The position numbers and the translations under genes are program-made. Below, in pieces: positions 1-29,916 of a DNA stretch of 32,000 bases; positions within the stretch are counted from its first letter, which is position 1; each line of letters starts with the position of its first letter. A model generated the notes under the pieces. It was given only the letters and a program-made list of their open reading frames with translations. It was not told the origin of the DNA and searched no databases. Source of the DNA: Psychrobacter cryohalolentis K5 (GTDB taxonomy: Bacteria > Pseudomonadota > Gammaproteobacteria > Pseudomonadales > Moraxellaceae); contig NC_007969.1 of the NCBI RefSeq assembly GCF_000013905.1, positions 1,110,001-1,142,000 of the forward strand. The letters run 5' to 3'.

Positions 1-66
1 AAAAAGTGAATCTATTTAATGCAATGAACCTCATGAACGACAGGATCGTCTAATTCATAAGCTAAG

Positions 67-642
67 ATGGAGAGCAATTCAAGAAATACGATTAACTTGA
101 ATTTTAAATTTTACGATAAAAATACAGGAGTCATGCTTATGATAGCTAATGCTGTGCAGAGAGGTAGTAGTGTTTACCTGTATGATGAAACAGGCCAAGA
201 TTTGCCAGTTTCAATTTTTACTAGAGGAGGTAGGTTAGTAGGGTTTACTGCTTCTACAGTAAGCATTCAAAACGGTACCCTTATTTATACTTACGATAAT
301 CGGGGTAATATCTTAGGCACTCCAATTTCTACTGCCTCTCAAGGGACCATTGAGTCTGATGCAACGAATGATAGGGAATCTAGCAGATATAGTAATAGAG
401 CAAATAGTAATACATCAGATTATGGGTTCATTGATGGATATATCGAAAGTTTAACGAATTATGTATACAGGAAGGGATGGAGTCAAAAGAGTATATTTGG
501 AAAACTACTAACTTTGATTTTATTACCCTTTGCAGTTTGCATCTCTGCTATTCAGATTGCTTTCACAATTTTAAGATGGCTAGTGATTGCTGCGGTAGTA
601 CTTGTAGTTCTATATGTATTTTATATAGGTATTTTTGGTTAG
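67..642 (+). CDS. hypothetical membrane-anchored protein (no family recognised)
   Basis: 191-aa ORF from the track. The soluble N-terminal part has two copies of a Y-x-Y-D-x-x-G-like motif (SSVYLYDETGQDL and TLIYTYDNRGNIL). The last ~55 aa are strongly hydrophobic (LLTLILLPFAVCISAIQIAFTILRWLVIAAVVLVVLYVFYIGIF), consistent with two TM helices. Start is uncertain: in-frame Met codons at positions 23 and 25. Confidence 0.5.
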   Translation: MESNSRNTINLNFKFYDKNTGVMLMIANAVQRGSSVYLYDETGQDLPVSIFTRGGRLVGFTASTVSIQNGTLIYTYDNRGNILGTPISTASQGTIESDATNDRESSRYSNRANSNTSDYGFIDGYIESLTNYVYRKGWSQKSIFGKLLTLILLPFAVCISAIQIAFTILRWLVIAAVVLVVLYVFYIGIFG

Positions 643-880
643 TTTTACCATTTTTTAAGTATTATCACTACAGTGGAAAAATATTATAAAGCCCGATGTA
701 TAAAGATGGCTATTCGAGATTTAAAAACATACAATCATAGGGTGGCCCTATTAATATAGGTTCATTAGCTAAAGGAGAAAATCAGTCAATTTGAAGTTTT
801 GGATAATTGCTACTTAAATTTCTATAAGCCGATCATAGCGGACAAACAAAAACTAATTTCATTTAATAAAGGGATTTATA

Positions 881-3154
881 ATGAAAAACGTAGCTGACTC
901 AAATAATGAAGAATGGATGCAAGAGATTTGGGATTGGGCAGATAAATTTAATATTGAAAAAGATATTATCCCTAGAAAGCCAAAAAAATTAATTAAGTTA
1001 GAAGTACTGGAAATTAGTTACAATGATGAAATAAGTACAATACCTGAAAGTATTGGAAATCTTAAGAGTTTAGTAACTTTCGCACTAGAAGGAAGTAAAG
1101 TAAAAAAATTACCAAACAGTATCGGTGAATTATCTAAACTGAAGCAATTAGTAATTAGCAGTAATGATAAACTAACTGAACTTCCTAAAAGCATGGGTAA
1201 TCTTGAAAATTTGGAAGAACTTCAGTTGAGAGGAAATGGACTTAAAAAATTACCAGATAGTTTCGGGCAGCTATCAAACTTAATATACCTAACCATTAAC
1301 GGTAACTATAACTTAACTGAACTTCCTGAAAGTCTTGGAGGCCTTGAAAACCTAGAAAGCCTTACTTTAGGATACATGGGGATAACAAAATTACCAGAAA
1401 GTATTGGTCAGCTATCAAAATTAAAATATTTAACTATTGAAGATCTTGAAAACATAATTGATCTTCCTGAAAGTATTAAAGACCTTGGGAATTTAGAAAG
1501 CCTTACTTTAGAGAATAGTGGTTTTAAAAAATTACCAGAAAGTATTGGTCAGTTGTTAAATTTAACAAATTTAACTATTAATTATAATAATAATATCACC
1601 GAATTTCCTGAAAGTATTGGAAATTTAAATATTTTAGAATATCTTAGTTTAGGAGGTAATAGTGTTAAAAAATTACCAGATAGTATTGGAAAATTATTTA
1701 GTTTAAGAGAGCTAAACATTAGTAATATTGAAAAATCGATCGATATTCCTGAAAGTATTGGCAATCTTAAGAATTTAGAAAGCCTTAGTTTAGGATACAT
1801 AAATATTAAGAAATTACCTGAAAATATTTTTCAATTATCAAGTTTATTAAGTTTGACTATAGTAGATAATATGAAACTCACAGAAATTTCTGAAAATATT
1901 AATAAACTTAAAAATTTAGAGACACTCTATTTAAAAGGTAATAACTTTAAAAAATTACCTAGTAGTATTGGTCAGTTATCAAAATTGATAGATTTAAGTA
2001 TAGAATATACTGGAAAAATTACAGAAATTCCTGATAGCTTAGTAGAACTTAATAATTTACAGAATCTCACTTTATGTGGTATGGAAATAAAAAAACTACC
2101 TGAAAACATGAGTCACTTGTCATGTCTAACAAATTTAACAATTACACATAATAGAAAACTCACAGAATTCCCTGAGAGTGTTGCAGGTATTAAGAATCTA
2201 GAAATACTATCTTTAAATGAAAACAGTTTAAAAACATTATCTGAAAGCATAAATAAAATGGAAAATTTAAAATATTTATATTTAGCTTCTAATTCTTTAA
2301 AGTCTTTACCTGATTTATCGAATTTAATTAAATTAGAATATTTGGAATTAGATAACAACAAGTTGAATTCTCTTCCTGAAAGTATTATAGGTATGGAGAA
2401 TTTAGAATCAATGAGTGTCTATGGTAACCCTCTTAAAGCTATTTCGAAACCTGTATTAAGTTTTCTAAAAAATTTAGACGTTTACGTTGATGGAGTTGAT
2501 GAGGTTGATGAGGTTGATGAATCAGATTATTCAACTTCAAACATCTCTAATGAAAATGATACTTCAAGATTTCTTCAGGTAAATGGTTATGGGGTAGAGA
2601 CCTTTGCTGGTACTGTAGAGGCTGCAACGTATCAATACTTCGAAGATAATGATATAGATCTTGAAAGTTATAGTAATGATGCTGAGTGGGGTAATGATGA
2701 CTGCCAAGTTCCAGAGGAGCATAACTTTGGCGGGTATGGATTATATGAAGTCGATAATCTATGGCATGTCAACGGCGCTTATTTAACAGAAGATACTCAA
2801 ATTGAGTTGGTGAACGGTTCTGAAGATACAATCTGGAGTTCGAACTGTGATACTGAATCGCTTGAATCGCAAGGTATTAAGTTGATTTGCGTTTCAAGTC
2901 AAGAAGATATTTTTGATAGCTTAGATTTAAAGACAGTTGTCATGATTGGTAGAATTTTCCAACAAGGTTGTACTTTTGAGACTCAACTTCAGGATATTGA
3001 AAATTTTGATCCAAATAACCTGACTATCTACTACCATGAAGATGAAAGCGGACGTATTATTAAGAAAATTGAATACAATGATACTGAGCTTGAAAACGGC
3101 AATAGTAGTACTTCTGGTTCAGGATCTGAATATTCTTGGGAAGTCATTGGATAG
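881..3154 (+). CDS. large LRR protein: Trp-rich N-terminal cap + about 20 LRR units + uncharacterised ~190-aa C-terminal domain
   Basis: 757-aa ORF with an AGGG-type SD upstream of the ATG. It has about 20 tandem 23-24-aa units of consensus LxxLxxLxLxxNxxLxELPESIGxLxxL (e.g. LPESIGNLKNLESLSL). N-terminus: EEWMQEIWDWADKFNIEKDIIPRKPKKL. The C-terminal domain (about 2570-3151; NGYGVETFAGTVEAATYQYFEDNDIDL...EHNFGGYGLYEVDNLWHVNGAYL...LTIYYHED) is clearly homologous to the C-terminus of the 3443-5584 protein. No signal peptide, P-loop or TM segment seen. Confidence 0.9.
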   Translation: MKNVADSNNEEWMQEIWDWADKFNIEKDIIPRKPKKLIKLEVLEISYNDEISTIPESIGNLKSLVTFALEGSKVKKLPNSIGELSKLKQLVISSNDKLTELPKSMGNLENLEELQLRGNGLKKLPDSFGQLSNLIYLTINGNYNLTELPESLGGLENLESLTLGYMGITKLPESIGQLSKLKYLTIEDLENIIDLPESIKDLGNLESLTLENSGFKKLPESIGQLLNLTNLTINYNNNITEFPESIGNLNILEYLSLGGNSVKKLPDSIGKLFSLRELNISNIEKSIDIPESIGNLKNLESLSLGYINIKKLPENIFQLSSLLSLTIVDNMKLTEISENINKLKNLETLYLKGNNFKKLPSSIGQLSKLIDLSIEYTGKITEIPDSLVELNNLQNLTLCGMEIKKLPENMSHLSCLTNLTITHNRKLTEFPESVAGIKNLEILSLNENSLKTLSESINKMENLKYLYLASNSLKSLPDLSNLIKLEYLELDNNKLNSLPESIIGMENLESMSVYGNPLKAISKPVLSFLKNLDVYVDGVDEVDEVDESDYSTSNISNENDTSRFLQVNGYGVETFAGTVEAATYQYFEDNDIDLESYSNDAEWGNDDCQVPEEHNFGGYGLYEVDNLWHVNGAYLTEDTQIELVNGSEDTIWSSNCDTESLESQGIKLICVSSQEDIFDSLDLKTVVMIGRIFQQGCTFETQLQDIENFDPNNLTIYYHEDESGRIIKKIEYNDTELENGNSSTSGSGSEYSWEVIG
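2486..2521 (+). repeat. in-frame 9-bp tandem repeat, 4 copies (GTTGATGGA, GTTGATGAG x2, GTTGATGAA)
   Basis: Read directly from the sequence. Encodes VDG-VDE-VDE-VDE in the acidic linker between the LRR array and the C-terminal domain of the 881-3154 protein. Confidence 0.85.
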
Positions 3155-3204
3155 TAGGGTATTTAATATTTTTTAGAATGAAGTCCTATCAAAATATTTA
3201 TAGT

Positions 3205-3243
3205 GCGCTTAGTGAAATCCTCAATTTTGCTAAGCGCGTTTTT
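3205..3243 (+). terminator. putative rho-independent terminator of the 881-3154 gene
   Basis: 8-bp stem GCGCTTAG (3205-3212) / CTAAGCGC (3230-3237) with a 17-nt loop, followed by GTTTTT (3238-3243). Lies about 50 nt after the stop codon. Confidence 0.5.
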
Positions 3244-3442
3244 AAATATCATGAATTTTTAAAAACAGTATCTCTTACAAACAAAGTGATTTTTTAGCAC
3301 ATTAAGTTCTCAAAATATCAAGCAACGATGAGTATTGTTTTTAAGTATTAGCCAAAAATTATTACTCATCAATTCAGGTTTTACGCTCTATAGCCTAAGT
3401 AGTTATCGAATACTATAATCAGAAAATACGATATTAACAGGG

Positions 3443-5584
3443 TTATATAATGACAAACCAAGACAATTCTTGTCTTTGTCCATATGAAGAACTTGACTCA
3501 TCTTCTATTATTTTACCGTCGTATTTAATCATTTTAATAACATCAATTCCATCGTCTTCGTGATAATAAATAACTAGTTTACTTGCATCGAATTTTTCAG
3601 TTAATTTAATTTTGGTCTTAAAAATGACACCATTTGAAACATACCTACCAGCTATAACAGCTAATGGTGTTGGTAATTCATTCACAATTTCGTCAAAATC
3701 ACCATCGCATATTATTTTAACACCTTGATCCTTTAGATCCTTCGAACTTAAAGAGCTTTGCCAGATACATGAATTATTACCATCGATAACTTCAATCTCA
3801 TTATCATCAATGTCTAAATATGCACCGTTTATATGCCATAAATCATCCGTTTGTTCAAGACCCATTCCTCCAAAATTATGTTCATCTGAGATATCTAATT
3901 CATCTAAGTCAAAAGTAACATCATGATTGTATTCATTAAGATCTATACCGTTATCTTCAAAATATTGATAAGTTTTAAAATCCACAGTACCTCCAAAAGT
4001 CTCTACACCAGTGCCATTAATTTGGATCGTTACTACATTATTTTTTTCACCATTGTTATTGATCATTTCAAGATTTTCATTAAGGCCAATTATACTAACG
4101 TTGATCATCTGAGATAAAACATTTAAAACCTGTGAACTTAGCGCATTATCATTAACAGGAATCCAAAACTCTTTCAAGCTATTAATTTCATTCATGCTAT
4201 TAGGCAATGTAGTGATTGGATTATCGTCAATATATATCTTTTCAATAAAACATAGCTTATTTATGGAATCAGGTAAAGTAGTTAGTTTGTTAGATCTACA
4301 ATTCAAATGACTTAAGTTTGACAATGAGCTTATTGAGTCAGGTAAAGTAGTCAATTCGTTATAACTACAGTCTAATTTTTTAAGATTTGACATCAAACCT
4401 ATTGAGTCAGGTAAAGTAGTTAATTTGTTATAACTACAATCTAAATAACTTAAGTTTGACAATGAGCTAATTGAGTCAGGTAAACATTTCAGTTTATTAT
4501 CAGTAATTATTAGATCAACTAAATTTTTAAGTGATCCTATATTCTCAGGCAGATATTTAATTTTATTGTTATAAATATCTAATTTTTCTAAAAGTTGTAA
4601 GTTTCCTATATTGCTTGGGAGTTCTATGAGTTCATTACATTCTAGGTTAAGAGACTTAAGGTTGGTTAAATTTTCAATATTTTTAGATAGTTTTTTTAAA
4701 TTACAATTTCGTAAGTTCAAATATTCTAAGGAAGGTAAATCAAAAAGAGAGTTATTTATTTTCATATTGTAATTTGAATCAAGGTCTAAATATTTTATAT
4801 TTTTTAGATCCTTAAAGTTATCAGGGATTGTTTTGATATCAAGGCCTGATAGGCGTAGTCTTTCTAAATATTGAAACTGAGTGACGATTTCAAGTGTATT
4901 TGAAATATTAAATGTATCAAAAAAATTAATGTAAAAAGCTAGATTCGATAATTTTTTTTGATTCAAGATAAAATCTGGAAATTTATCTTTTGAGTAGCTC
5001 CCAATTTCTATACTAGTTAAATTTTTTAAATGATTAATGCTTTGGGGTAATATTTCTATTGAATTAGAGCTATAGTGTAAAAGATTAAGATTTTCGAGAT
5101 TGCCTATAAGATCAGGAAGTTTTTTTAAATTATAGTTATTTTTTAAATTAAGGTGCTCTAAATTTTCTAACTCAGAAATACTCTCAGGTAAAGATTTAAT
5201 TTTTATATTAGTACTAACGTCTAAATATTTTAGCCCTTTTAATTTATTTATACTTTTTGGTAAAATGCTTATCTTATTATTATTTAACTTGAGAGTTTCA
5301 AGTTCATTTAATTTCATTAAAAATGCAGGAACTGACTTTAAATCTGAATTGCTTAAGTCAAGATATTTTAGTTTTTTTAAGTTTGAAAAAGCTTTAGGTA
5401 GTGGGTTTATGTACCTAAAAGTTCGACTACTATCAGATTCATAAACAACACTGCTAAATTTTTGTAGATTAATTAAGTCGCTGGCATTACGAGGTATATC
5501 TTGTTCGGATAAATCATTCTCATCCGCCCACTTCCAGATTTCTTCCATCCACGTTTCAGTCTGTTGAATACTGTTGTTTAGCAT
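3443..5584 (-). CDS. large LRR protein, paralog of 881-3154 (same cap, about 17 LRR units, same C-terminal domain)
   Basis: 713-aa ORF. N-terminus: ETWMEEIWKWADENDLSEQDIPRNASDL. LRR units such as LPDSISSLSNLSYLDCSYNKLTT. The C-terminal domain (about 3446-4035; NGTGVETFGGTVDFKTYQYFEDNGIDL...EHNFGGMGLEQTDDLWHINGAYL...LVIYYHED) aligns colinearly with the other paralog. Convergent with 881-3154. Confidence 0.9.
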   Translation of the reverse strand: MLNNSIQQTETWMEEIWKWADENDLSEQDIPRNASDLINLQKFSSVVYESDSSRTFRYINPLPKAFSNLKKLKYLDLSNSDLKSVPAFLMKLNELETLKLNNNKISILPKSINKLKGLKYLDVSTNIKIKSLPESISELENLEHLNLKNNYNLKKLPDLIGNLENLNLLHYSSNSIEILPQSINHLKNLTSIEIGSYSKDKFPDFILNQKKLSNLAFYINFFDTFNISNTLEIVTQFQYLERLRLSGLDIKTIPDNFKDLKNIKYLDLDSNYNMKINNSLFDLPSLEYLNLRNCNLKKLSKNIENLTNLKSLNLECNELIELPSNIGNLQLLEKLDIYNNKIKYLPENIGSLKNLVDLIITDNKLKCLPDSISSLSNLSYLDCSYNKLTTLPDSIGLMSNLKKLDCSYNELTTLPDSISSLSNLSHLNCRSNKLTTLPDSINKLCFIEKIYIDDNPITTLPNSMNEINSLKEFWIPVNDNALSSQVLNVLSQMINVSIIGLNENLEMINNNGEKNNVVTIQINGTGVETFGGTVDFKTYQYFEDNGIDLNEYNHDVTFDLDELDISDEHNFGGMGLEQTDDLWHINGAYLDIDDNEIEVIDGNNSCIWQSSLSSKDLKDQGVKIICDGDFDEIVNELPTPLAVIAGRYVSNGVIFKTKIKLTEKFDASKLVIYYHEDDGIDVIKMIKYDGKIIEDESSSSYGQRQELSWFVII
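4263..4484 (-). repeat. 69-bp tandem repeat (3 full units + partial) = recently duplicated 23-aa LRR units
   Basis: Units start at 4263, 4332, 4401 and 4470 with an exact 69-bp period. Each begins ATKGARTCAGGTAAA. They encode LPDSISSLSNLSHLNCRSNKLTT / LPDSIGLMSNLKKLDCSYNELTT / LPDSISSLSNLSYLDCSYNKLTT. Similarity is mosaic: the unit 1 tail (CTTAAGTTTGACAATGAGCT) is identical to the unit 3 tail, and the unit 2 head nearly equals the unit 3 head. Confidence 0.85.
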
Positions 5585-6100
5585 GCTGAGTCCCTTGTAT
5601 AATTGATTCTGAATTGAGAAAATAATTTTAAATTATATTATCATTAGTATGTTATTAAGCCAAGTTAAAAAAATATAATCTATATTTTTGATAAATTATT
5701 TATATTGTTGTTAATCTAATTTTATATTAATTAAATTGATTTATACCTATTCATTCTTGATGTTCTTTGGATCAAATCTTTAAAAAAATGGCACTCATCA
5801 TACTTGTCCATCAGAATTTTTGACCATATCAAAACTTATATTATTCATTTTAATCATGTATTTAGTCTTGGTACTGGAGATCAGAGTTTATCTTCACTGC
5901 TTGTAGAGAATTTTAATCAGTATATTGTGATGCAAAACTATAAAATTTAGTTTGTTACTATTCATTTAGCTGCGGCTGTGGTTGATATTTTAAAACATCT
6001 ACTAATTTTTATTTTAAATAAATGGTATCTTAGACACTTACGCGTAATCAGATATTAAATAGAATACTTTAATCAGAAAGTATAACATTAACAGGATTTT

Positions 6101-8533
6101 ATGATGACTGAAAATTTTGAAGCAATAGATGTAAATTCTTATTGGTTTGTTGGTGCTGTATATAATGGGATAGACCAAACGTCTCGATTTGTTGAAACAG
6201 GTATCTGGGAGGTTAATCCTGAAGCCAATCAGATTGATTCAGTAAAGTCTATTGAGGCTGGTGATAGGATCGCTATTAAATCAACCTATACTAGAAAAAA
6301 CGAACTACCTTTTGATAATCGAGGCCACACAGTTTCTGTGATGTTAATTAAGGCTATCGGTACCGTTATTGAGAATGTAGGTGACGGTAACCTTTTAAAA
6401 GTAGATTGGGACAACAGCTTTATTGCTAAAGAATGGTATTTTTTCACTAGTCGAAATACAGTTTGGAGAGTCATTCCTGAGACTGCGTTAAGAGTTAATT
6501 TGATTGATTTTGCATTTGACGGTAAAGCTCAAGACATAGATATGTTCCGTAATAATCCTTATTGGCTTGAAAGATTTGGCGATTCACCTTCAGAGCATTC
6601 CGCTTTTGAGTGGACAACTTTCTATGAAGAAATGGCCTCTAAGCTTCTTGCCTTTCGCTATCGTCGTGATGAGCTTGTCACCGGTATTCATAAAATATCT
6701 GAAACAAGTAATGTCATGTCTATTCTTAACGACCAATACGAAGAGGGTGTCGAAGGAGGATTATTAAAAGATATATGTCCTTTTACAGTCATGGCTCTTT
6801 TTAATCGTGGAATCACTGACGATAATCGCAAAATTATAGCTAAAGCATTGGCTGAACTACTTGATTTAACAGAGCCTGTTCCTGAATCTTTTGATGGCAT
6901 TCCTATAGTTAACAACCAAAGGACATGGTTTTTTAGTTATAGCTATAAGCGTCATCCAGATGATATAGATATTCTATGGGAGGTGTTTGCTCAAGCCATC
7001 GCATTTGCCGACTTAGACGGTGAAATTGAAGATGATAGATTCCAGTTTATGGCTGCATATGATAAAGCAACGCACTGCCATAGAGTGGGTTGGAATCTCA
7101 CTATGGGTCTATATTGGATTAGGCCTTGGAAATTCTTAACGCTAGATAGACAATCTCAAGAATACATCAATAAAAAGCTTGATATCGAAATCAATAAAAA
7201 CGGTCCAAAAGCACGCTGTGATGCTAATGATTATTTAAAGTTGTTAGAGAGTTTTGAAACCAGATTTTTAGAAGAAACTTATCCTGTACATTCTTTTCCT
7301 GAACTCTCGCTTGTAGCAGATAAGTATCAGCCTAATGATTTGGAGAAGATATCTAAAAATAACTGGAAATATATTATTCCATCTCAAGTGAAACAGCTCT
7401 GTCATGACAAGCAGTTTAATGAATTTACGGTAGATGAATTTTTAAAAAGGTTTACTAAGGATCTTGAACAAAGATATCCTAAGAACAGTGACGTGAAAAG
7501 AGATATTAAATATGTTTTAAGAGAAATGGCTAAAAATGGAAGTTTGGAGTCACTTAGTAAAGGAGTGTATCGCTTGCTGAATGTAAATATGACCAGTGAT
7601 CTTGATGTTTCAACCTATTCTGAGCTTGATATTCAAACAGTCCCTGATACTTACTCTGCTACTAATATTACATCTGATGGGTGTTTTTTGCCTAAAGCTA
7701 AGATTGAGATGATACTCAAACGTTTTCGAGCTAAGAAAAATCTAATACTACAAGGGCCTCCCGGTACTGGTAAAACTTGGTTGGCTAAAAGATTAGCCTT
7801 TGCTTTAATGGGTCAGCGTGACGATAGCAAAATACGAGCCGTGCAATTTCATCCTAATTTGTCTTATGAAGATTTTATTAGAGGTTGGCGTCCATCAGGT
7901 GAGGGCAAGCTGACATTGGTAGACGGTCCTTTTATGGAAATGATCAAAGCCGCTATTGATGATCCTGAATCAAAGTACGTTATTGTCATCGAAGAGATTA
8001 ACCGAGGTAACCCTGCTCAAGTGTTCGGTGAGATGCTCACACTACTTGAAACCGATAAAAGAACCCCAGACGAAGCGTTAGAGCTGTCTTATAGAAAGTT
8101 CGATGGTGAACGTGTTTATATTCCCAGTAATTTATATGTCATAGGCACAATGAATATAGCTGACCGTTCGCTGGCCTTGGTTGATCTTGCGCTACGTCGT
8201 CGGTTTGCTTTTATTGATCTTGAGCCAACATTAGGCAAGCCATGGCATGATTGGGTTCAATCCAAAAATGGCATTGATTCAACGATTTTAAATGCAATTG
8301 ACAGTCGCATCAGGGCTCTAAATGAGGATATTGCTGCAGATACCAGTCTTGGTGCTCAGTTTCAAATAGGCCATAGCTATGTCACGCCAGCCGTTGGGAT
8401 GAATATAACGGATGCTAAGGAATGGTTTAGTGAGGTGGTACAGACGGAGATTGGTCCTTTACTGGATGAGTACTGGTTTGATGATCTTGAGAAGTCGCAA
8501 AAAGCGCAGAAACGCTTGATTGAAGGTCTGTAA
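6101..8533 (+). CDS. mcrB: McrB-family AAA+ GTPase subunit of a type IV (modification-dependent) restriction system, with a ~530-aa N-terminal extension
   Basis: 810 aa. Walker A LILQGPPGTGKTW, Walker B-like YVIVIEEINRGN, and the McrB-type signature GTMNIADRSLALVDLALRRRFAF, all in the last ~280 aa. A winged-helix-like segment (YVLREMAKNGSLESLSKGVYRL) lies upstream, and the N-terminal ~130 aa look like a small beta-barrel (IEAGDRIAIKSTY...IKAIGTVIE). Immediately followed by mcrC. Confidence 0.9.
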   Translation: MMTENFEAIDVNSYWFVGAVYNGIDQTSRFVETGIWEVNPEANQIDSVKSIEAGDRIAIKSTYTRKNELPFDNRGHTVSVMLIKAIGTVIENVGDGNLLKVDWDNSFIAKEWYFFTSRNTVWRVIPETALRVNLIDFAFDGKAQDIDMFRNNPYWLERFGDSPSEHSAFEWTTFYEEMASKLLAFRYRRDELVTGIHKISETSNVMSILNDQYEEGVEGGLLKDICPFTVMALFNRGITDDNRKIIAKALAELLDLTEPVPESFDGIPIVNNQRTWFFSYSYKRHPDDIDILWEVFAQAIAFADLDGEIEDDRFQFMAAYDKATHCHRVGWNLTMGLYWIRPWKFLTLDRQSQEYINKKLDIEINKNGPKARCDANDYLKLLESFETRFLEETYPVHSFPELSLVADKYQPNDLEKISKNNWKYIIPSQVKQLCHDKQFNEFTVDEFLKRFTKDLEQRYPKNSDVKRDIKYVLREMAKNGSLESLSKGVYRLLNVNMTSDLDVSTYSELDIQTVPDTYSATNITSDGCFLPKAKIEMILKRFRAKKNLILQGPPGTGKTWLAKRLAFALMGQRDDSKIRAVQFHPNLSYEDFIRGWRPSGEGKLTLVDGPFMEMIKAAIDDPESKYVIVIEEINRGNPAQVFGEMLTLLETDKRTPDEALELSYRKFDGERVYIPSNLYVIGTMNIADRSLALVDLALRRRFAFIDLEPTLGKPWHDWVQSKNGIDSTILNAIDSRIRALNEDIAADTSLGAQFQIGHSYVTPAVGMNITDAKEWFSEVVQTEIGPLLDEYWFDDLEKSQKAQKRLIEGL

Positions 8534-8537
8534 GTCT

Positions 8538-9662
8538 ATGTCTATTGAAATAGATTCGCTGTCTGAATATTATGATGAGATCAAGTCTATAGGCAAAATA
8601 CCTATACGCAACCTTTGGCTGCTTATGCTTTATGCCTCGGATATGTATAGAGAGTTTGAAGCGGCTAAGATTTCAGTTGAAAATAATCCTGATGATATTC
8701 CAGACCTAATTGCAGAAATGCTCTGTCGACGAGTTGAGCATCGGATTCAGCGTAATTTGAGTTATAGTTATCAGTCTCGAGATGCTGTGCTCAATCGTGT
8801 CCGAGGTAGAATAGATCTGCTTAGCACTGAGAGAAATAGATTGCTTGATCGTGGTAAAGTCGCTTGTCATTTTGATGAGTTAACCCTTGATACCTCGCGT
8901 AATAGATATGTCCGTGCTGCCTTAGAGAGTATTTCTAAGATTGTAAAAAATAAGGATTTAGCTCATAGGTGTCGATCACTAGATGTTCGCTTAAGGCGCA
9001 TGGGAGTCAGTCAGACACGTCCAAGTCGCAGTCAAGTCTCAGTAGATCGCTTTGGACGGCATGATGCTGAAGATCAACCTATGGTTACCGCCGCTCATCT
9101 AGCTTTTAATCTTGCGCTACCGACTGAGTTTGAAGGTACAAAGCAGTTAAACTCACCAGAGAGAGATAATTTACCCTGGCTTCGTAAGCTTTTTGAAAAA
9201 GGAGTTGCTGGGTTCTATGACACGGTCTTGTCAAAGCAGAGCTATCGTATAAGCGCTGGCAAAACTCTGAGATGGCAAATAAAGGATAAGAGCTTAGGCA
9301 TTGATAAGATACTTCCTAACATGAGAACAGATATCTTAATAGATGATATGGAATTAGGACATCGCTTAGTCATTGATACTAAGTTCAACGCTGTCGTAAT
9401 CAATGGTTGGTATAGAGATGAAACCTTACGTAGTGGTTATCTATATCAGATGTACGCCTATTTAAGATCGCAAGAAGGTAATGGCGACCTACTCAATGAA
9501 ACTGCTTCCGGATTACTACTTCATCCCTCTGTAGGTAAAAACGTTAATGAGTACATCGTCATGCAAAATCATAAAATTCAGTTCGCTACTGTCGATCTAG
9601 CAGCGACTGCAATTGAGATTAGAGAGCAGCTATTACAAGTTATTGGTGTTGAGCAAAATTAA
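8538..9662 (+). CDS. mcrC: McrC-family nuclease subunit
   Basis: Follows mcrB within a few nt. Size (~375 aa) is typical of McrC. N-terminal IPIRNLWLLMLYASD and a C-terminal PD-(D/E)xK-like RTDILIDD...LVIDTKFN. The track ORF starts at TTG 8520 and overlaps mcrB. ATG 8538 with GAAGG upstream is the more likely start. Confidence 0.85.
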   Translation: MSIEIDSLSEYYDEIKSIGKIPIRNLWLLMLYASDMYREFEAAKISVENNPDDIPDLIAEMLCRRVEHRIQRNLSYSYQSRDAVLNRVRGRIDLLSTERNRLLDRGKVACHFDELTLDTSRNRYVRAALESISKIVKNKDLAHRCRSLDVRLRRMGVSQTRPSRSQVSVDRFGRHDAEDQPMVTAAHLAFNLALPTEFEGTKQLNSPERDNLPWLRKLFEKGVAGFYDTVLSKQSYRISAGKTLRWQIKDKSLGIDKILPNMRTDILIDDMELGHRLVIDTKFNAVVINGWYRDETLRSGYLYQMYAYLRSQEGNGDLLNETASGLLLHPSVGKNVNEYIVMQNHKIQFATVDLAATAIEIREQLLQVIGVEQN

Positions 9663-12858: not shown

Positions 12859-13716
12859 ATGACTGCTTCCCTAAATAACAGTCCTTCAAAAGCTAATCTC
12901 TCTATAGCACAAGCCTGTGCAATCACCTTCCAAGGTAATGCCAGTAATGACCTACAACAAGATGCTTTTTTCTTTTTGGACAATTGGTATCAAGAAGACT
13001 TAGGGGTGATGGCAGTGACACCAGTGGCATCTCCTTTTTGCTTAGCAGTGTCTGATGGTGTGGCAAGCTCTAATCATTCACAGCACTGCTCAAAGGCAGT
13101 GGTGAAAGCAATTAGCCGGTTATGGAGTGAGCGGAAGAGCATCCGTTCAGACAGTATTCATCAGCTGATTAATCAAGCCAAACATTCATCTAAGCGTCAT
13201 GATGCAGCGGCAACCCTCGCGATGGTAGTGGGAGAAGTAAATAGTGAAGGCTTAGTAAAGGCAACGATAACCCATGTAGGGGATAGTCGTGTTTACTGGC
13301 TACCCGAAGGCACGTCACAATGGCAATGTCTGACTCGTGATCATAACTTGCTAAATGAACTCATTGATCAGCAGGCACAGGAGCAAGGTCGGCAAGCGGA
13401 GTTTTCTGACTATAACCGAGAAGGAATGGCGGGGAGTCTGTATAGCATTACTGAGTGCTTTGCCTTAACCACTGATGACAGCTATATAAGCAGTGAAGCA
13501 CCAGAAGCCAACTCTTGCACTATTGATGTTAATAGTGGCGACTGTCTCTTGGTTTGTACGGATGGTATTCATGACTTAGTGCCAAGTCATAACTGGCAAA
13601 CTGTCAGTGCACAGACAGATTTGCAGGAGTGGCTCATCACTCTTAAAAATCAGGTCTATGACTCCGATGGCAATGCTTATGATAATGGCACCGCAATTGT
13701 GGTTCGTTTTGATTGA
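12859..13716 (+). CDS. PP2C-family (PPM) Ser/Thr protein phosphatase
   Basis: 285 aa. PPM motifs in the right order: AVSDGVASS, THVGDSRVYW, LLVCTDGIHDLV, DNGTAIVVRF. Confidence 0.85.
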   Translation: MTASLNNSPSKANLSIAQACAITFQGNASNDLQQDAFFFLDNWYQEDLGVMAVTPVASPFCLAVSDGVASSNHSQHCSKAVVKAISRLWSERKSIRSDSIHQLINQAKHSSKRHDAAATLAMVVGEVNSEGLVKATITHVGDSRVYWLPEGTSQWQCLTRDHNLLNELIDQQAQEQGRQAEFSDYNREGMAGSLYSITECFALTTDDSYISSEAPEANSCTIDVNSGDCLLVCTDGIHDLVPSHNWQTVSAQTDLQEWLITLKNQVYDSDGNAYDNGTAIVVRFD

Positions 13717-14858
13717 ACATTTATCTTAATAATAAAGTGATGAGCTCATCACGTAATAGAGTAAATACTATGTCCACGCATCCAATCGCCAGCTATACAA
13801 AGTCGACACGTCTATTTGCTTTATATCAATGTCTGCCTCGTAGTGAAGCGGATGCTGTGTCACTGACAGAGTTGATGATTGGTTATGGTGATAATCCAGA
13901 TAATTTCGCTAATGAGCGTAAAAACTTAGAGAACGATCTGATTGGCTTAAATCAAATCTTTAACGGTATTTTTTATAGTGATGCATTAGTTCGAGTACCG
14001 GAATGGGGGCAAAATATCAGCGGACAAACAGCACGCTTTTATATTGAACCGAGCTTTAGTATCGACGTTCTTAACGAGCAAACAGTGTTCTTTTGGGAGA
14101 TGCTTGATAAATATACCGCAAACTATTTACCAGTGTCTTTTAAACAAGGAATCACAGATAAGCTCACCCAATTAGGCCGGCACAATAAGGATGGTTTCCA
14201 TCAAAGTAAGCTTGGGCAATGGCAAGATTATCTCATCACTTTACCTAGTATTGTGCAAGCACCGACGCTTAATAATGAGGTGGTTGCAAGTATTCATCAA
14301 GCTTTGCTACAAAATCATCAACTACGGATAATCTATCAAAAGAAATGGGCAGGAGAGTCAGCTGTAAGAGTGGTATATCCCAAAGGGCTTATCTTCATCG
14401 ACAATATGGTTTATCTCACAGGCTTTGATCCTACTGATGATCATATCGATGATGAAGCACTGTTAAAAGCGCATCGTAATTTTGCAATCAATCGTATTAC
14501 CGAGGCAGTAGTCATAGATAAGCCGATACCTGACTGGGTAGGGCGAGATACTTTTTCATTAGAGCATTTGCATAAACTGGGTAGGTTAGAGCCGACTGAT
14601 AGTGCACAGATCAAACTGGTTTTAGAGGTACAAAGATATGCCTGTCAGCATTTATACGAGCGTCCGTTATCGATAGATCAAAAAATTATTGCTATCGATG
14701 ACACTTGGAATCAAGTCAGTGCCACTGTTGCCAATACGCTTCGTCTGCAAGATTGGCTGGTAAGTATGTCACAGTTGTCTGTTGTCATTGAGCCACCAGT
14801 GCTAAAAACCGTAATTCTAGAGCGCTTACATAGTGCGTTAGAGTTATATGGAGATTAA
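13713..14858 (+). CDS. HTH-WYL-WCX transcriptional regulator (BrxR/CapW/PafBC-like architecture)
   Basis: N-terminal wHTH-like RLFALYQCLPRSEADAVSLTELM. WYL domain LRIIYQKKWAGESAVRVVYPKGLIFIDNMVYLTGFD...HRNFAINRITEA. C-terminal extension ...LRLQDWLVSMSQLSVVIEPPVLKTVILERL, typical of the WCX domain. The track start is TTG 13713 (4-nt overlap with the PP2C stop). ATG 13740 or ATG 13770 are alternative starts. Confidence 0.8.
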   Translation: MNIYLNNKVMSSSRNRVNTMSTHPIASYTKSTRLFALYQCLPRSEADAVSLTELMIGYGDNPDNFANERKNLENDLIGLNQIFNGIFYSDALVRVPEWGQNISGQTARFYIEPSFSIDVLNEQTVFFWEMLDKYTANYLPVSFKQGITDKLTQLGRHNKDGFHQSKLGQWQDYLITLPSIVQAPTLNNEVVASIHQALLQNHQLRIIYQKKWAGESAVRVVYPKGLIFIDNMVYLTGFDPTDDHIDDEALLKAHRNFAINRITEAVVIDKPIPDWVGRDTFSLEHLHKLGRLEPTDSAQIKLVLEVQRYACQHLYERPLSIDQKIIAIDDTWNQVSATVANTLRLQDWLVSMSQLSVVIEPPVLKTVILERLHSALELYGD

Positions 14859-14932
14859 GATTCAGTTATTAATAATGTGATCTTAAATTATTTAACGAAG
14901 AGTTGATTCTCAACTTTAACAGGAAGTTTAAA

Positions 14933-15934
14933 ATGATAACAAACAATACTACTACTGCAAAACCATGGATGTCAGAGCTGTGGACATGGGCCGATGAGTA
15001 TGGGATTTCTGAAAAGGATTTACCACGAAACGAAGCGCATCTATTGACGATAACAGAATTGGAGATCTGCTCTGACCAGATTACTGAGCTGCCTGAAAGT
15101 ATTGGTTACTTACACAACCTAACCCATTTAGCCCTAAACTGCAAAGCGCTTGAACGTTTGCCAGAGTCTATAGGTCAATTAAGTCAGTTAGAGCGATTGA
15201 CGATTACTAGTGATGAGGTTAAGCAACTTCCTGAGAGCTTTGCTAGGCTAATCAGTTTGAGTTCGCTAAATATTCCTACTCACTTAAGCAATCAGCTACC
15301 CACGACTCTTATGGATAAGTATCATAATGAAAATGAAACGTTATATATAGAGCGTATGGCTTTCACTTCGTTATATAGCCCCTTGGAAAAGAATTATGGC
15401 TTATCCTTTTTCGGGTTTGTTCTTATTAGTGATGATTGGAATGAAAAAGCACTAATTGATTTAAAGTTCAAAGCAGCATTAGAGTTCTTACTCGTTTTGC
15501 AAACCACTGAACAAACTATTGATGATTTTGATGTGGTGGATGGCGTGATCATTTGCAAGCCTGATGAAGTACAAAAAATAATAAATATGTTTGAAACTAC
15601 TTTCGACTATTCTGTGATGGCTATAGACTTTGGAGATGTTAGAGAAGCAATAAATTTTGCGAAACCTGCTAAATTTATACAAGCTAGTGCATTAGAAGTG
15701 TCTGAATCAGACAAAGTATTTAGTCAGATTATTGATCAAATTCCTAAAGAGATAACCGTAAAATCTGTGATGTTTCAAGTGGAAAGTAACCGTTATTTTA
15801 CAGTGGATGAGTTCAAAGTTATGTCAGATACTATTGATAATATGGGTGCAGAGGATGAACATATTTTCTATAGTGCAAAAGTTGTCGATAAGCCTGAGCA
15901 CTGTTGGATGGGTATGATATATATGGTTGGGTAA
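14933..15934 (+). CDS. short LRR protein: same Trp-rich cap + about 4 LRR units + distinct C-terminal domain with FtsZ C-terminal-subdomain-like features
   Basis: ATG 14933 is preceded by AGGAAG; the track ORF starts at TTG 14903. Cap: KPWMSELWTWADEYGISEKDLPRNEAHL. LRRs such as ITELPESIGYLHNLTHLAL, LERLPESIGQLSQLERLTI, VKQLPESFARLISLSSLNI. C-terminal ~105 aa: MAIDFGDVREAI...TVDEFKVMSDTI...CWMGMIYMVG. Confidence 0.8.
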   Translation: MITNNTTTAKPWMSELWTWADEYGISEKDLPRNEAHLLTITELEICSDQITELPESIGYLHNLTHLALNCKALERLPESIGQLSQLERLTITSDEVKQLPESFARLISLSSLNIPTHLSNQLPTTLMDKYHNENETLYIERMAFTSLYSPLEKNYGLSFFGFVLISDDWNEKALIDLKFKAALEFLLVLQTTEQTIDDFDVVDGVIICKPDEVQKIINMFETTFDYSVMAIDFGDVREAINFAKPAKFIQASALEVSESDKVFSQIIDQIPKEITVKSVMFQVESNRYFTVDEFKVMSDTIDNMGAEDEHIFYSAKVVDKPEHCWMGMIYMVG

Positions 15935-16025: not shown

Positions 16026-16763
16026 CTACTCTTGATGTTTCCAGCTTTCTTGGTTTAATGGCATTTGGTTGAGTAAATCTCGTCTAGATCGCCAATCGGG
16101 CATGTGAGTGTCCAGCAGGGCTTTAAACTTGTCATTGTGCTGCCGCTCTTTAAAATGTAGCAGTTCATGCAAGATAATATATTCCAAGCAGGGCAGAGGC
16201 TTTTTAGCCAAATCTAAGTTAAGCTGTATATTGCCTCCTTCTATATTACAGCTGCCCCATTTGGTTTTCATTTTTTGGATCTGCCAACTGTTTATAGCGA
16301 CGCCAGTTTGCTTAGACCATTTATTAATAAGATCAGGTGCTCTTACTTTTAAGCGGTTACGATAGTATTCATTCAATAGCTTCAGCTTCACTTCATCTGA
16401 GGCATCAATATTTACGGTTAGTATAAGCTTACCGCTTTTTAGTTTGACCGTCTGAGATTTGAGTGTATCGCTCTCAATCACTTCAAGTCGGTAGCGTCTG
16501 CCCCAAAGATAATGCGTCTCTCCATTTACCATCTCACGCGCTGATTGGCGCTCTTGCTTGGCAAACGCCGCCTGTTGCCGTCGAATCCAAGGTATACGGT
16601 GGATGACAGCCATCCGAATGGCCGTCTCGGTCATAGCATCAGGCGCAGATACTCTGACCTGTCCATCAGGTGGCATCACGCTAATATGTAGGTTTTTAAT
16701 ATCTTTGCGAGTTAAATGTATATCTAACTCACCAATCTTAATAAGCGCTGACTTAACAATCAC
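16026..16763 (-). CDS. DUF45 / YgjP-like (M48-type) zinc metallopeptidase
   Basis: 245 aa with the HExxH motif in YIILHELLHFKERQHNDKF near the C-terminus, as in DUF45/YgjP proteins. Its start overlaps the hsdR stop by 4 nt. Confidence 0.8.
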   Translation of the reverse strand: MIVKSALIKIGELDIHLTRKDIKNLHISVMPPDGQVRVSAPDAMTETAIRMAVIHRIPWIRRQQAAFAKQERQSAREMVNGETHYLWGRRYRLEVIESDTLKSQTVKLKSGKLILTVNIDASDEVKLKLLNEYYRNRLKVRAPDLINKWSKQTGVAINSWQIQKMKTKWGSCNIEGGNIQLNLDLAKKPLPCLEYIILHELLHFKERQHNDKFKALLDTHMPDWRSRRDLLNQMPLNQESWKHQE

Positions 16764-19924: not shown

Positions 19925-19927
19925 GAT

Positions 19928-22099: not shown

Positions 22100-22100
22100 A

Positions 22101-23576: not shown

Positions 23577-23641
23577 AACATACCGTTAATTGATTGATGA
23601 TATTAATGTTGAATACTCTTAACGCTTAAAATATTAGCCTA

Positions 23642-27330: not shown

Positions 27331-27831
27331 AGTTATAAGTCTTATAATCAGAGAATGTTTTATTAAGTGAAAAAATTATCGAAGAATGGTATCACATTAC
27401 AGCTCGTATTCTCGTCATATAGACTGACTTAAAGGGCTAATAGATATACGCTCTAGTCTAGCGTCAGTGTTGATAGGATAGAAGATAATTAAAATAGTAA
27501 TAGAGATTCACACGTCATCTAATGTCGTAAGTAGTCAGCGGTAATTTAAACTATAGTTATTCTCTGATCAAAAATATAAATGCATGTAGCTATTAAGTCT
27601 CAAATTTATCTATTATTTTCTAGATATTAGTCGTCAATCATTTTCTAGTCATTTGTTTATGTTACTATTCCATTTTTATAAGTTACAGCTTGTAATGACG
27701 GGTCTTGCTTGTCGTTATAGATAGTTTTTGACCTAGATATTTATTACTAAATTGTGCTGACTTTAATTTGGTTATGTTTAGTTTAAATAGTATAACTTTC
27801 AATCTTTTATTTGATGGGATAGGTGATATTG

Positions 27832-29898: not shown

Positions 29899-29916
29899 TT
29901 TTGGAGTGTATCGCTA

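What the first reader, a model, noticed from the sequence alone, without database searches (positions are those of the whole stretch)
908..994. A ~30-aa Trp-rich N-terminal cap is shared by all three LRR proteins, with different C-terminal domains
The N-termini read EEWMQEIWDWADKFNIEKDIIPRKPKKL (881 gene), ETWMEEIWKWADENDLSEQDIPRNASDL (3443-5584 gene; cap encoded at about 5477-5560 on the minus strand) and KPWMSELWTWADEYGISEKDLPRNEAHL (14933 gene; cap at about 14957-15046). The consensus is W-M-x-E-[IL]-W-x-W-A-D-[EK]-x-x-[IL]-x-E-x-D-[IL]-P-R. The same cap plus LRR is combined with two unrelated C-terminal domains and very different repeat numbers (about 20, 17 and 4). This looks like domain shuffling around a constant N-terminal adaptor or LRR-capping module. 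The third gene uses clearly less AT-rich codons than the first two, so the copies are not a recent local duplication.
Basis: seen in the sequence. Interest (0 to 1): 0.65.

Follow-up and report, generated by a model that had tools for sequence, protein, structure and literature searches.

The report
Trp-rich N-terminal cap of bacterial LRRs

Summary
Observation confirmed. All three LRR proteins of this Psychrobacter window carry W-M-x-E-[IL]-W-x-W-A-D-x3-[IL]-x5-P-R at residues 12-32. A codon-level pattern hits exactly these three sites, with 0 expected by chance.

The motif is not special to this locus:
- An exhaustive profile search found 399 protein clusters.
- A strict DNA pattern found 88 true copies in 185,579 species genomes and at least 120 metagenome stretches.
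- Carriers are mainly Psychrobacter (2-4 scored paralogues in several genomes), other marine Gammaproteobacteria and Campylobacterota.

The motif is always followed directly by LRRs. About 60-70% of carriers are LRR-only. It also occurs internally, and two or three times in one chain, each time opening a new LRR block.

AlphaFold2 predicts (pLDDT >90) one helix over W12-E22, then a loop and turn leading into the first strand. Cap positions 16-37 align to an ordinary LRR unit. So only about 15 residues are unique: an amphipathic Trp helix replacing the first beta-strand.

Domain shuffling is real in a subset. Three mutually unrelated, unannotated C-terminal domains occur in Psychrobacter, and DarT, RES and TPR fusions occur elsewhere. 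In Psychrobacter the genes with a C-terminal domain mostly sit in the McrBC / type I R-M island. The P3 type always follows a PP2C-WYL pair.

Verdict: an unmodelled member of a known kind (LRR N-cap). Moderate-to-low interest.

The parts
881..3154 (+). P1: cap-LRR protein, 757 aa. About 21 LRRs in an alternating 24/23-residue super-repeat, then a type-B C-terminal domain. GC 29.7%.
914..949 (+). P1 cap helix, W12-F23 (WMQEIWDWADKF). This amphipathic Trp-rich helix is the only part unique to the cap.
   Evidence: helix placement by analogy with the P3 model
950..991 (+). P1 'repeat 0', N24-L37 (NIEKDIIPRKPKKL). It is a degenerate LRR variable segment that leads into the first beta-strand.
2543..3151 (+). 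P1 type-B C-terminal domain, about residues 555-757. No Pfam, NCBIfam, PHROGs, PADLOC or PDB match.
3443..5584 (-). P2: cap-LRR protein, 713 aa, convergent with P1, with a type-B C-terminal domain. GC 27.8%.
5516..5551 (-). P2 cap helix, W12-N23 (WMEEIWKWADEN).
5474..5515 (-). P2 'repeat 0', residues 24-37 (DLSEQDIPRNASDL).
14933..15934 (+). P3: cap-LRR protein, 333 aa, with 3-4 LRRs and a type-A C-terminal domain. It belongs to a family of ~330-aa proteins conserved across Psychrobacter.
14966..15001 (+). P3 cap helix, W12-Y23. The AlphaFold2 helix spans residues 11-22, and pLDDT averages >90 over residues 11-100.
15002..15046 (+). P3 'repeat 0', G24-L38 (GISEKDLPRNEAHLL). From about residue 29 it aligns to ordinary LRR units of SHOC2 and Leptospira LIC proteins.
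15308..15931 (+). P3 type-A C-terminal domain, residues 126-333. Unannotated, and modelled only at low confidence.
12859..14858 (+). PP2C phosphatase (12859..13716) and a WYL-WCX regulator (13713..14858). This pair precedes every type-A cap-LRR gene examined in Psychrobacter.
67..642 (+). orf191, an unannotated protein whose C-terminal ~45 residues are strongly hydrophobic (read from the translation; not tested with any tool). It flanks the type-B LRR gene(s) in several Psychrobacter species, with McrB on the other side.
6101..9662 (+). McrB (AAA_5) and McrC. They border the P1/P2 slot.

Best explanation
The shared segment is the N-terminal cap of a particular lineage of bacterial LRR domains. 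These are SHOC2 / Leptospira-LIC-like repeats of the form LxxLxxLxLxxNxLxxLPxxIGxL.

It has two parts:
- About 12-15 residues, [DE]-S-W-[MI]-x-x-[LI]-W-x-W-A-D-[EK]-[NF], form an amphipathic helix. The three Trp plus Met/Ile, Leu/Ile and Ala lie on one face. This helix takes the place of the first beta-strand. Its covering of the otherwise exposed hydrophobic core of the solenoid is inferred, not shown.
- The following I-[SP]-E-x-x-[IL]-P-R-[ND]-K-x-x-L-L is a degenerate LRR variable segment ('repeat 0') that leads into the first true strand.

Because it belongs to the LRR fold, it is inherited and shuffled together with the repeats. The cap+LRR unit occurs alone (most cases), in tandem, or fused to assorted C- or N-terminal domains.

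The three window proteins are old paralogues of this unit. P1 and P2 are AT-rich, probably horizontally acquired genes between orf191 and McrBC. P3 is a member of a PP2C-WYL-LRR cassette conserved across the genus.

Shown here: occurrence, strict LRR adjacency, distribution, LRR-likeness of the second half, and the predicted helix.
Inferred: that the helix packs on and stabilises the first repeat, and that the proteins are cytoplasmic ligand-binding scaffolds.
For: - Specificity: the three caps are matched by a specific codon pattern, with 0 hits expected.
- Breadth: the exhaustive profile search found 399 clusters at E<=1e-3. Among the 149 best newly retrieved hits, the cap sits within the first 25 residues in 68, after a 26-100 aa leader in 59, and further in for 22.
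- LRR adjacency: all 106 representatives with at least 50 aa after the cap have an LRR motif directly downstream. Pfam LRR_14 is present in 64/64 genome-derived and 54/57 long representative proteins, and no Pfam or NCBIfam model covers residues 1-28.
- LRR-only majority: 38/64 genome proteins and 65/92 metagenome proteins have no sizeable non-LRR tail.
- Tandem modules: several chains carry two or three caps, each opening a new LRR block, for example P0131 with caps at 22, 132 and 231.
- LRR-like second half: cap columns 16-37 align to P1 LRR-unit columns 11-32 (hhalign E=4e-4). The profile's only PDB matches (E>1) are LRR units of FLS2 and Rsu1. phmmer alignments of P3 to SHOC2 begin at residue 29-30 and none of those printed covers residues 1-28.
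- Structure prediction: the AlphaFold2 model of P3 has pLDDT >90 over residues 11-100, with helix 11-22, a short helix 34-37 and the first strand at 42-47.
- Amphipathicity: the helical hydrophobic moment is 0.38-0.63, in the top 0.1-2.7% of shuffles.
- Context independence: LRR-only paralogues lie among housekeeping genes, and neighbourhoods outside Psychrobacter are heterogeneous.
Against: - No coordinates were inspected, so burial of the Trp face against repeat 1 is inferred and not measured.
- The profile and the DNA pattern both include the LRR-like second half. 'Always followed by LRR' is therefore partly built into the searches. A helix-only search (about 12 residues) is statistically infeasible with these tools.
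- Conservation of W, W, W, A, D, P and R across very divergent proteins may be stronger than many structural caps need (no comparison was made here). This leaves room for an added binding or regulatory role.
- The cap is not universal among bacterial LRRs of this repeat type. P0121, P0124 and P0128 lack it.
Confidence: 0.8

Rival explanations
1. The cap is an adaptor or homotypic-interaction module, like the effector-associated domains of NTPase-based conflict systems. It would dock different LRR-effector proteins onto a common partner or onto each other.
For: - The motif is very strongly conserved across proteins whose remaining sequence is unrelated.
- Three carriers sit in one defence island.
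- In a subset the motif is combined with variable C-terminal domains, including the toxin domains DarT and RES.
Against: - The motif was never found apart from LRRs.
- Most carriers are LRR-only.
- It occurs internally and in tandem within one chain.
- Many carriers lie in housekeeping neighbourhoods.
- No neighbouring non-LRR protein in the window carries the motif; the pattern hits only the three LRR genes.
- Half of the motif is itself an LRR unit.
Confidence: 0.08
2. The cap is an N-terminal secretion or translocation signal for LRR effector proteins.
For: - In the three window proteins the motif lies within the first ~40 residues.
- The repeats resemble those of the type III effectors XopAC, XopL and XopAE, with NCBIfam scores below the curated cut-offs.
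- Some carriers come from host-associated taxa: Dichelobacter, Endozoicomonas and Ruthturnera.
Against: - In 81 of 149 representatives the motif is not at the extreme N-terminus. This includes positions beyond residue 100 and tandem copies.
- It is predicted to be a folded helix contiguous with the LRR.
- The sequences show no signal-peptide-like hydrophobic stretch in P1-P3.
- Most carriers are free-living marine bacteria.
Confidence: 0.04
3. The cap helix is a regulatory lid as well as a structural cap. It would dock on the LRR or on the C-terminal domain and be released on ligand binding (autoinhibition).
For: The invariant charged residues D21 and R32 and the three Trp seem more than minimal capping would need, though no comparison with other caps was made. 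Autoinhibition involving the LRR is described for IpaH ligases (abstract of PMC7728815).
Against: - Most carriers have no second domain to regulate.
- The cap's conserved positions are equally frequent in carriers with and without a C-terminal domain.
- The model gives a single confident conformation contiguous with repeat 1.
Confidence: 0.05

Closest known systems
Helical N-terminal caps of bacterial LRR proteins: the internalin cap (InlB) and the N-terminal helices of YopM / IpaH / SspH
   Same: A short helical element lies immediately N-terminal to the first repeat and shields the end of the solenoid core. It is inherited with the LRR domain whatever is fused downstream. The cap role of the InlB and YopM helices is described in PMC3986869.
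   Different: There is no sequence relationship. No PDB chain matches the cap profile (best E=1.2, and that match is to an LRR unit). No Pfam or NCBIfam model covers residues 1-28. Here the cap is a single helix plus a degenerate repeat. The internalin cap is described only as 'helical' in the abstract of PMC3986869; the three-helix arrangement is my recollection. The two helices of YopM/IpaH are also my recollection, not tested here.
SHOC2 / Leptospira LIC11098, LIC12759, LIC10831 / Rsu1-type LRRs
   Same: The repeat type and length are the same (LxxLxxLxLxxNxLxxLPxxIGxL, 23-24 aa). These are the best PDB sequence matches to the P3 LRRs (E 1e-38 to 1e-26) and appear among the Foldseek hits.
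   Different: The alignments shown start at P3 residue 29-30 and do not include the Trp helix. The solved proteins therefore do not share this cap.
Eukaryotic and plant LRRNT caps (Pfam LRRNT PF01462, LRRNT_2)
   Same: They have the same functional category: an N-terminal flanking cap of an LRR solenoid.
   Different: LRRNT caps are Cys-rich, disulphide-bonded and extracellular (my own knowledge). The window proteins give no Pfam LRRNT hit. Only 1 of 64 relatives gave a marginal hit (E=4.5e-4).
Xanthomonas type III LRR effectors XopAC, XopL and XopAE (NCBIfam)
   Same: The LRR regions are similar. P1 scores 354 bits against XopAC and 309 against XopL.
   Different: All scores are below the curated cut-offs (450-600). 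The matches cover the repeats only. There is no Fic, XL-box or other effector domain, and no cap match.
Defence cassettes regulated by WYL-domain proteins (BrxR/CapW-type)
   Same: In every type-A locus examined, P3 and its relatives lie directly downstream of a WYL-WCX protein, and in this window they lie inside a McrBC / type I R-M island.
   Different: The WYL protein has no detectable sequence match to any solved structure, so no BrxR or CapW structure was matched. PADLOC recognises only the WYL domain. No defence phenotype is known for the LRR partner.

Membership tests
LRR N-terminal capping element (generic structural class) | Lies immediately N-terminal to the first LRR, with no linker | tested here: met
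   The first strand follows about 5 residues after the cap's L37 in all three proteins. An LRR motif lies directly downstream in 106/106 representatives. Pfam LRR_14 is present in 64/64 and 54/57.
LRR N-terminal capping element (generic structural class) | Folded element whose hydrophobic face covers the exposed core of repeat 1 | tested here: inconclusive
   AlphaFold2 gives helix 11-22 with pLDDT >90, contiguous with strand 42-47. The helix is strongly amphipathic. No coordinates were available to measure burial, and there is no experimental structure.
LRR N-terminal capping element (generic structural class) | Travels with the LRR domain whatever other domains or genomic context are present | tested here: met
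   LRR-only proteins are the majority. At least 3 unrelated C-terminal domains occur, plus DarT, RES, TPR and Lcl_C fusions. Tandem cap-LRR modules occur. Contexts include both defence islands and housekeeping regions.
   No Pfam or NCBIfam hit covers residues 1-28 of P1, P2 or P3. The profile has no PDB match.
Effector-associated / adaptor domains of conflict systems | The same short domain is fused directly to diverse non-repeat domains and is shared between separate proteins of one system | tested here: not met
   The motif is only ever found fused to LRRs. In the window, only the three LRR genes carry it. Caveat: the search profile includes an LRR-like half.
Type III secreted LRR effectors (XopAC / XopL / XopAE, IpaH / SspH / SlrP) | Whole-protein score above the NCBIfam cut-off, and presence of the effector domain (Fic, XL-box, NEL) | tested here: not met
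   Scores are 42-354 bits against cut-offs of 450-1243. Only the repeats match.
Known anti-phage defence systems (PADLOC-DB v2) | Match of the LRR proteins to a defence-system model | tested here: not met
   P1, P2 and P3 match 0 PADLOC families. Only the neighbouring WYL protein matches.
Known anti-phage defence systems (PADLOC-DB v2) | Protection against phage when expressed | not testable with these tools
   Needs phage challenge assays.

The most novel reading that the evidence does not exclude
The cap-LRR proteins that carry a C-terminal domain could be single-chain sensor-effector immune proteins that lack an NTPase. These are types A, B and C in the Psychrobacter McrBC / type I R-M island, and the DarT and RES fusions elsewhere. 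The LRR would bind a phage component, the C-terminal domain would be the toxic output, and the type-A form would be controlled by the conserved upstream PP2C phosphatase and WYL-WCX regulator. The Trp cap would then be the sequence signature of a bacterial lineage of LRR immune sensors.
Probability: 0.2. Interest if true: 0.65.

Novelty: new member of a known kind. Interest (0 to 1): 0.33.

Why it matters
The cap itself gives a clean sequence signature, about 38 residues with near-invariant W, W, W, A, D, P and R. Neither Pfam nor NCBIfam models it. It marks the true start of an LRR solenoid in several hundred bacterial protein clusters, which helps set domain boundaries, design constructs and annotate genes.

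The cap-LRR unit may matter more than the cap. In Psychrobacter it is attached to three unannotated C-terminal domains inside a hypervariable restriction and defence island. One type is always paired with PP2C and WYL genes. Elsewhere the unit is fused to the known toxin domains DarT and RES. If these proteins prove to be LRR-based sensors with exchangeable effectors, they would be a bacterial counterpart to LRR immune receptors that works without an NTPase. Nothing here shows that they are.

Tried and rejected
- The word-indexed homologue search with the 40-aa cap alignment returned only 2 near-identical fragments. It was too insensitive for a short query, so I replaced it with the exhaustive profile search.
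I replaced it with a hand-made codon pattern. The first version had a one-base spacing error and found nothing; it was corrected.
- AlphaFold2 of the P1/P2 C-terminal domain with an 8-row alignment failed (pLDDT 38.6), so no fold assignment was possible.
- The P3 model's C-terminal half is low confidence. Its Foldseek hits to FtsZ (E about 1e-5 to 1e-4, TM 0.25-0.31) are treated as unreliable.
- PDB sequence searches with the two C-terminal domains gave nothing. The third type, C, was not searched against the PDB.
- PHROGs and PADLOC gave nothing for the LRR proteins or their C-terminal domains. One type-C protein (L014) gave only sub-threshold LRR matches in NCBIfam, and its C-terminal 207 aa gave no PHROGs hit.
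- A phage origin is rejected. There was only 1 pattern hit in 2.9 million viral contigs.
- Recent duplication or gene conversion of the cap is rejected.
- Three literature searches found no description of this motif or of Psychrobacter LRR proteins. The library is incomplete, so this is absence of evidence only.
- The WYL neighbour could not be tied to BrxR or CapW by sequence against solved structures.
Full report
**1. The observation**

The window encodes three LRR proteins:
- P1: 881..3154 (+), 757 aa.
- P2: 3443..5584 (-), 713 aa.
- P3: 14933..15934 (+), 333 aa. The ORF lister starts it at a TTG at 14903, but all homologues start at the ATG.

Their N-termini align without gaps over residues 12-38. 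W12, M13, E15, W17, W19, A20, D21, P31, R32 and L37 are invariant. A codon-level pattern for W-x3-[ILVMF]-W-x-W-A-D-x3-[ILVMF]-x5-P-R hits the window exactly three times, at 914-975 (+), 5490-5551 (-) and 14966-15027 (+). None of 100 shuffles gave a hit.

P1 and P2 are 34% identical along their length and share a C-terminal domain of about 200 aa. P3 shares only the cap and LRRs with them, and its C-terminal domain is unrelated by profile-profile comparison (probability <1%).

P1 and P2 are much more AT-rich than P3. GC is 29.7%, 27.8% and 36.8%; GC3 is 0.21, 0.22 and 0.34; the window as a whole is 37.6% GC. The cap-coding DNA is only 58-71% identical between copies.

**2. What the segment is**

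Pfam and NCBIfam recognise only the repeats. No model covers residues 1-28 or the C-terminal domains.

I built a 38-column profile from the three caps plus diverse relatives and searched it exhaustively against 1.84 billion cluster representatives. It found 399 clusters at E<=1e-3 and 31 at E<=1e-10. The derived consensus is D-[ED]-S-W-[MI]-x-[ER]-[LI]-W-x-W-A-D-[EK]-[NF]-x-I-[SP]-E-x-x-[IL]-P-R-[ND]-K-x-x-L-L-x-L-T-x-L. W4, W11, A12, D13, P23, R24 and L29 are present in more than 92% of 140 full-length matches.

Among the 149 best newly retrieved hits, the motif starts within the first 25 residues in 68. It follows a 26-100 aa leader in 59 and lies deeper in 22.

Every representative with at least 50 residues after the motif has an LRR motif directly downstream (106/106). 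54 of 57 long representatives and 64 of 64 genome-derived proteins have Pfam LRR_14. Several chains contain two or three copies, each opening a new block of repeats. Examples are P0131 with caps at 22, 132 and 231, and the 655-808 aa Psychrobacter type-A proteins with two.

The second half of the motif is itself LRR-like:
- The profile's only PDB matches (E>1) are ordinary LRR units of FLS2 and Rsu1, aligned to cap positions 15-38.
- hhalign aligns cap columns 16-37 to columns 11-32 of the P1 repeat unit, which is the variable segment plus the next strand (E=4e-4).
- phmmer alignments of P3 to SHOC2 start at residue 29-30, and none of those printed reaches residues 1-28.

AlphaFold2 modelled P3 from a 45-sequence alignment. 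pLDDT is above 90 over residues 11-100. It places a single helix at 11-22, a short turn-helix at 34-37 that is equivalent to the convex-side turn of each later repeat, and the first strand at 42-47.

The helix is strongly amphipathic. W12, L16, W19, A20, M13 and W17 fall within a 160-degree arc. The hydrophobic moment is 0.38-0.63, in the top 0.1-2.7% of shuffles.

So the unique part is a Trp-rich helix of about 12-15 residues that takes the place of the first beta-strand. It is followed by a degenerate 'repeat 0'. This is what an LRR N-terminal cap looks like. Packing of the Trp face onto repeat 1 is inferred, because I could not inspect coordinates.

**3. Distribution**

The strict DNA pattern found 90 matches in 86 stretches of one-genome-per-species GTDB contigs. 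Of these, 88 are genuine caps and 2 are chance hits in a Pirellulaceae and an Acidimicrobiia contig. About 4 chance hits were expected.

Roughly two thirds are from Psychrobacter, where several genomes carry 2-4 scored paralogues. The rest come from:
- Other Gammaproteobacteria: Colwellia, Moritella, Shewanella, Psychromonas, Alteromonadaceae, Thaumasiovibrio, Endozoicomonas, Dichelobacter, Ca. Ruthturnera and Piscirickettsiaceae.
- Campylobacterota: Sulfurimonas, Sulfurovum, Arcobacteraceae and others.
- One Desulfurivibrionaceae MAG and one Bacteroidales MAG.

Viral contigs gave only one.

The cap is not universal among bacterial LRRs of this repeat type. P0121, P0124 and P0128 lack it. It therefore marks a lineage, not all LRRs.

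**4. Fused domains and context**

Of 64 complete genome-derived proteins, 38 are LRR-only. Ten carry the P3-type C-terminal domain (type A), with from about 2-3 up to 13 regex-counted repeats. Nine carry the P1/P2-type domain (type B), with 10-23 repeats. Four carry a third type (C), and three are singletons. The three types are mutually unrelated. Of 92 complete metagenome ORFs, 65 are LRR-only.

Known domains fused to the unit elsewhere are:
- DarT (P0231).
- RES, N-terminal to the cap (P0232).
- TPR (P0191).
- Lcl_C (P0275 and one other).
- IF2_N plus a sub-threshold DnaJ-like match (P0145). One further long representative also matches WD40 (not identified individually).

The window comes from Psychrobacter chromosome CP022043.2. 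In Psychrobacter:
- Every type-A gene examined lies directly downstream of PP2C and WYL-WCX genes, sometimes with a PDDEXK_4 gene in between and DUF1810 after. This holds in three different flanking contexts.
- Five of the seven type-B genes outside the window (L034, L036, L040, L047, L075) lie beside orf191 and/or McrB. The other two (L020, L042) showed no window-island neighbour within their 8-kb blocks.
- Of the four type-C genes, L038 lies beside McrBC and L014 beside hsdM/hsdS; L037 and L046 showed no island-gene neighbour.
- LRR-only paralogues mostly sit among housekeeping genes such as DNA polymerase I, TatC and pyrophosphatase.

Outside Psychrobacter the neighbourhoods are heterogeneous. 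A few defence or mobile-element genes appear: WYL in 3-4 of 135 neighbour ORFs, DRT-type reverse transcriptases, and integrases.

The association with a defence island therefore belongs mainly to the cap-LRR proteins that carry a C-terminal domain, not to the cap.

**5. Interpretation**

Best explanation (confidence about 0.8): a structural N-cap that is integral to one LRR lineage and is shuffled together with the repeats.

Rivals:
- An adaptor or homotypic-docking module (about 0.08).
- A secretion signal (about 0.04).
- A regulatory lid (about 0.05).

Three observations disfavour the rivals: strict LRR adjacency, the LRR-only majority, and internal or tandem copies. One caveat applies. My searches include the LRR-like half of the motif, so a helix-only occurrence on non-LRR proteins would have been missed.

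**6. Comparison with known families**

In kind, this is an LRR N-terminal cap like those of internalins and YopM/IpaH. In sequence it is unrelated to them, and neither Pfam, NCBIfam nor the PDB sequences represent it. The repeats themselves are of the SHOC2 / Leptospira LIC type.

The proteins fail the tests for membership of the type III effector families: scores are below the cut-offs and no effector domain is present. They also match no PADLOC defence family. Three literature searches found no description of the motif.

**7. Verdict**

The 'capping module' reading is right and the 'adaptor' reading is not supported. The cap itself is an ordinary kind of feature that current libraries do not model.

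The more interesting lead is the set of cap-LRR proteins with exchangeable, unannotated C-terminal domains in the Psychrobacter defence island, together with the conserved PP2C-WYL-LRR cassette. Its function remains untested.

Noticed in passing
window 12859-15934; also L001, L004, L006, L010-L012, L017, L033, L055, L066, L071, L072, L081, L082: A conserved cassette runs PP2C phosphatase, then a WYL-WCX regulator (overlapping it by 4 nt here), then a type-A cap-LRR protein. Some genomes add a PDDEXK_4 nuclease gene before the LRR gene and DUF1810 after it. The cassette occurs in three different flanking contexts: McrBC / type I R-M, a CRISPR-Cas neighbourhood, and WG_beta_rep with transposases. 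It looks like a mobile functional unit and is not in PADLOC.
   Followed up: partly
P0136, P0151, P0152, P0163, P0166, P0201, P0235, P0267 and about 25 others (search): Many cap-LRR proteins from the representative search (source organisms unknown; the window's three Psychrobacter proteins lack this leader) carry a conserved 40-58 aa leader before the cap, of the form M-N-K-N-L-P-x-I-x7-L-x-K-[TS]-K-S-L-L-x-I-T-N-K-I-L. A second variant reads ...KGKGSLLALTDSI[IL]xSAIAARK.... It has no hydrophobic signal-peptide core, and its function is unknown.
   Followed up: partly
P0231 (932 aa), P0232 (913 aa): The cap-LRR unit is fused to known toxin domains. DarT, an ssDNA ADP-ribosyltransferase, lies C-terminal to the LRRs in P0231 (residues 494-692). 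A RES domain lies N-terminal to the cap in P0232 (residues 222-356, cap at 402).
   Followed up: partly
window 992-2527 (P1 LRR region): The P1 repeats alternate strictly between a 24-residue unit (LxxLxxLxIxxNxxLTELPESIGN) and a 23-residue unit (LxNLExLxLxxxxIKKLPESIGQ). This makes a 47-residue super-repeat (read from the sequence; alignment A10).
   Followed up: partly
window 15308-15931 (P3 C-terminal domain): Foldseek of the P3 model returns dozens of FtsZ structures (E 2e-5 to 6e-4) but with low TM scores (0.25-0.31). The modelled C-terminal half has pLDDT 30-70. Residues 248-332 are predicted as beta-alpha-beta-alpha-beta-beta. This is possibly a real fold similarity and possibly an artefact of the poor model.
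   Followed up: no
window 1-9662 and L094 (CP022043.2 upstream): P1 and P2 (GC 28-30%) are convergent genes in a slot between orf191 and McrBC. Upstream of orf191 lie a 1172-aa RNase_H_2 + SF1 helicase (AAA_11/AAA_12) protein, a methyltransferase and an HNH protein. Other Psychrobacter species have one or two type-B LRR genes of different lengths (521-828 aa) in the same slot. The slot therefore seems hypervariable.
   Followed up: partly
window 16026-27330: The type I R-M operon (hsdR 16760-19924, hsdS 23642-24901, hsdM 24901-27330) has two DUF262/GmrSD-like genes (19928-22099, 22101-23576) inserted between hsdR and hsdS. A YgjP-like metallopeptidase gene (16026-16763) lies downstream of hsdR.
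   Followed up: no
window 27823-30648: A 691-aa protein with an N-terminal membrane region and a long coiled-coil-like tail is followed by a 243-aa protein. The pair resembles a ZorA/ZorB (MotA/MotB-like) pair by eye. Pfam gave only weak coiled-coil hits to the first protein, and the second was not scanned.
   Followed up: no
L071 193-2205 (-) (Psychrobacter sp. WY6): A single 671-aa ORF joins a PDDEXK_4 nuclease domain in frame to a type-A cap-LRR protein, with the cap at residue 351. In other genomes these are two adjacent genes separated by 1 nt. It is either a real fusion or a lost stop codon.
   Followed up: no
L087 (MAG 'Planctomycetia bacterium TMED53'), L068 (MAG 'Flavobacteriaceae'): Over the ~49-residue stretches compared, the cap-LRR genes on these MAG contigs are identical or nearly identical to Psychrobacter genes (compare L018/L050 and L020). 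The contigs are probably mis-binned Psychrobacter DNA.
   Followed up: no
P0007, P0008 (203 aa): The type-B C-terminal domain also appears as stand-alone 203-aa predicted proteins starting MSNEN.... P0007 is on 8 contigs and P0008 on 4. They may be free-standing versions of the domain or truncated gene calls.
   Followed up: no
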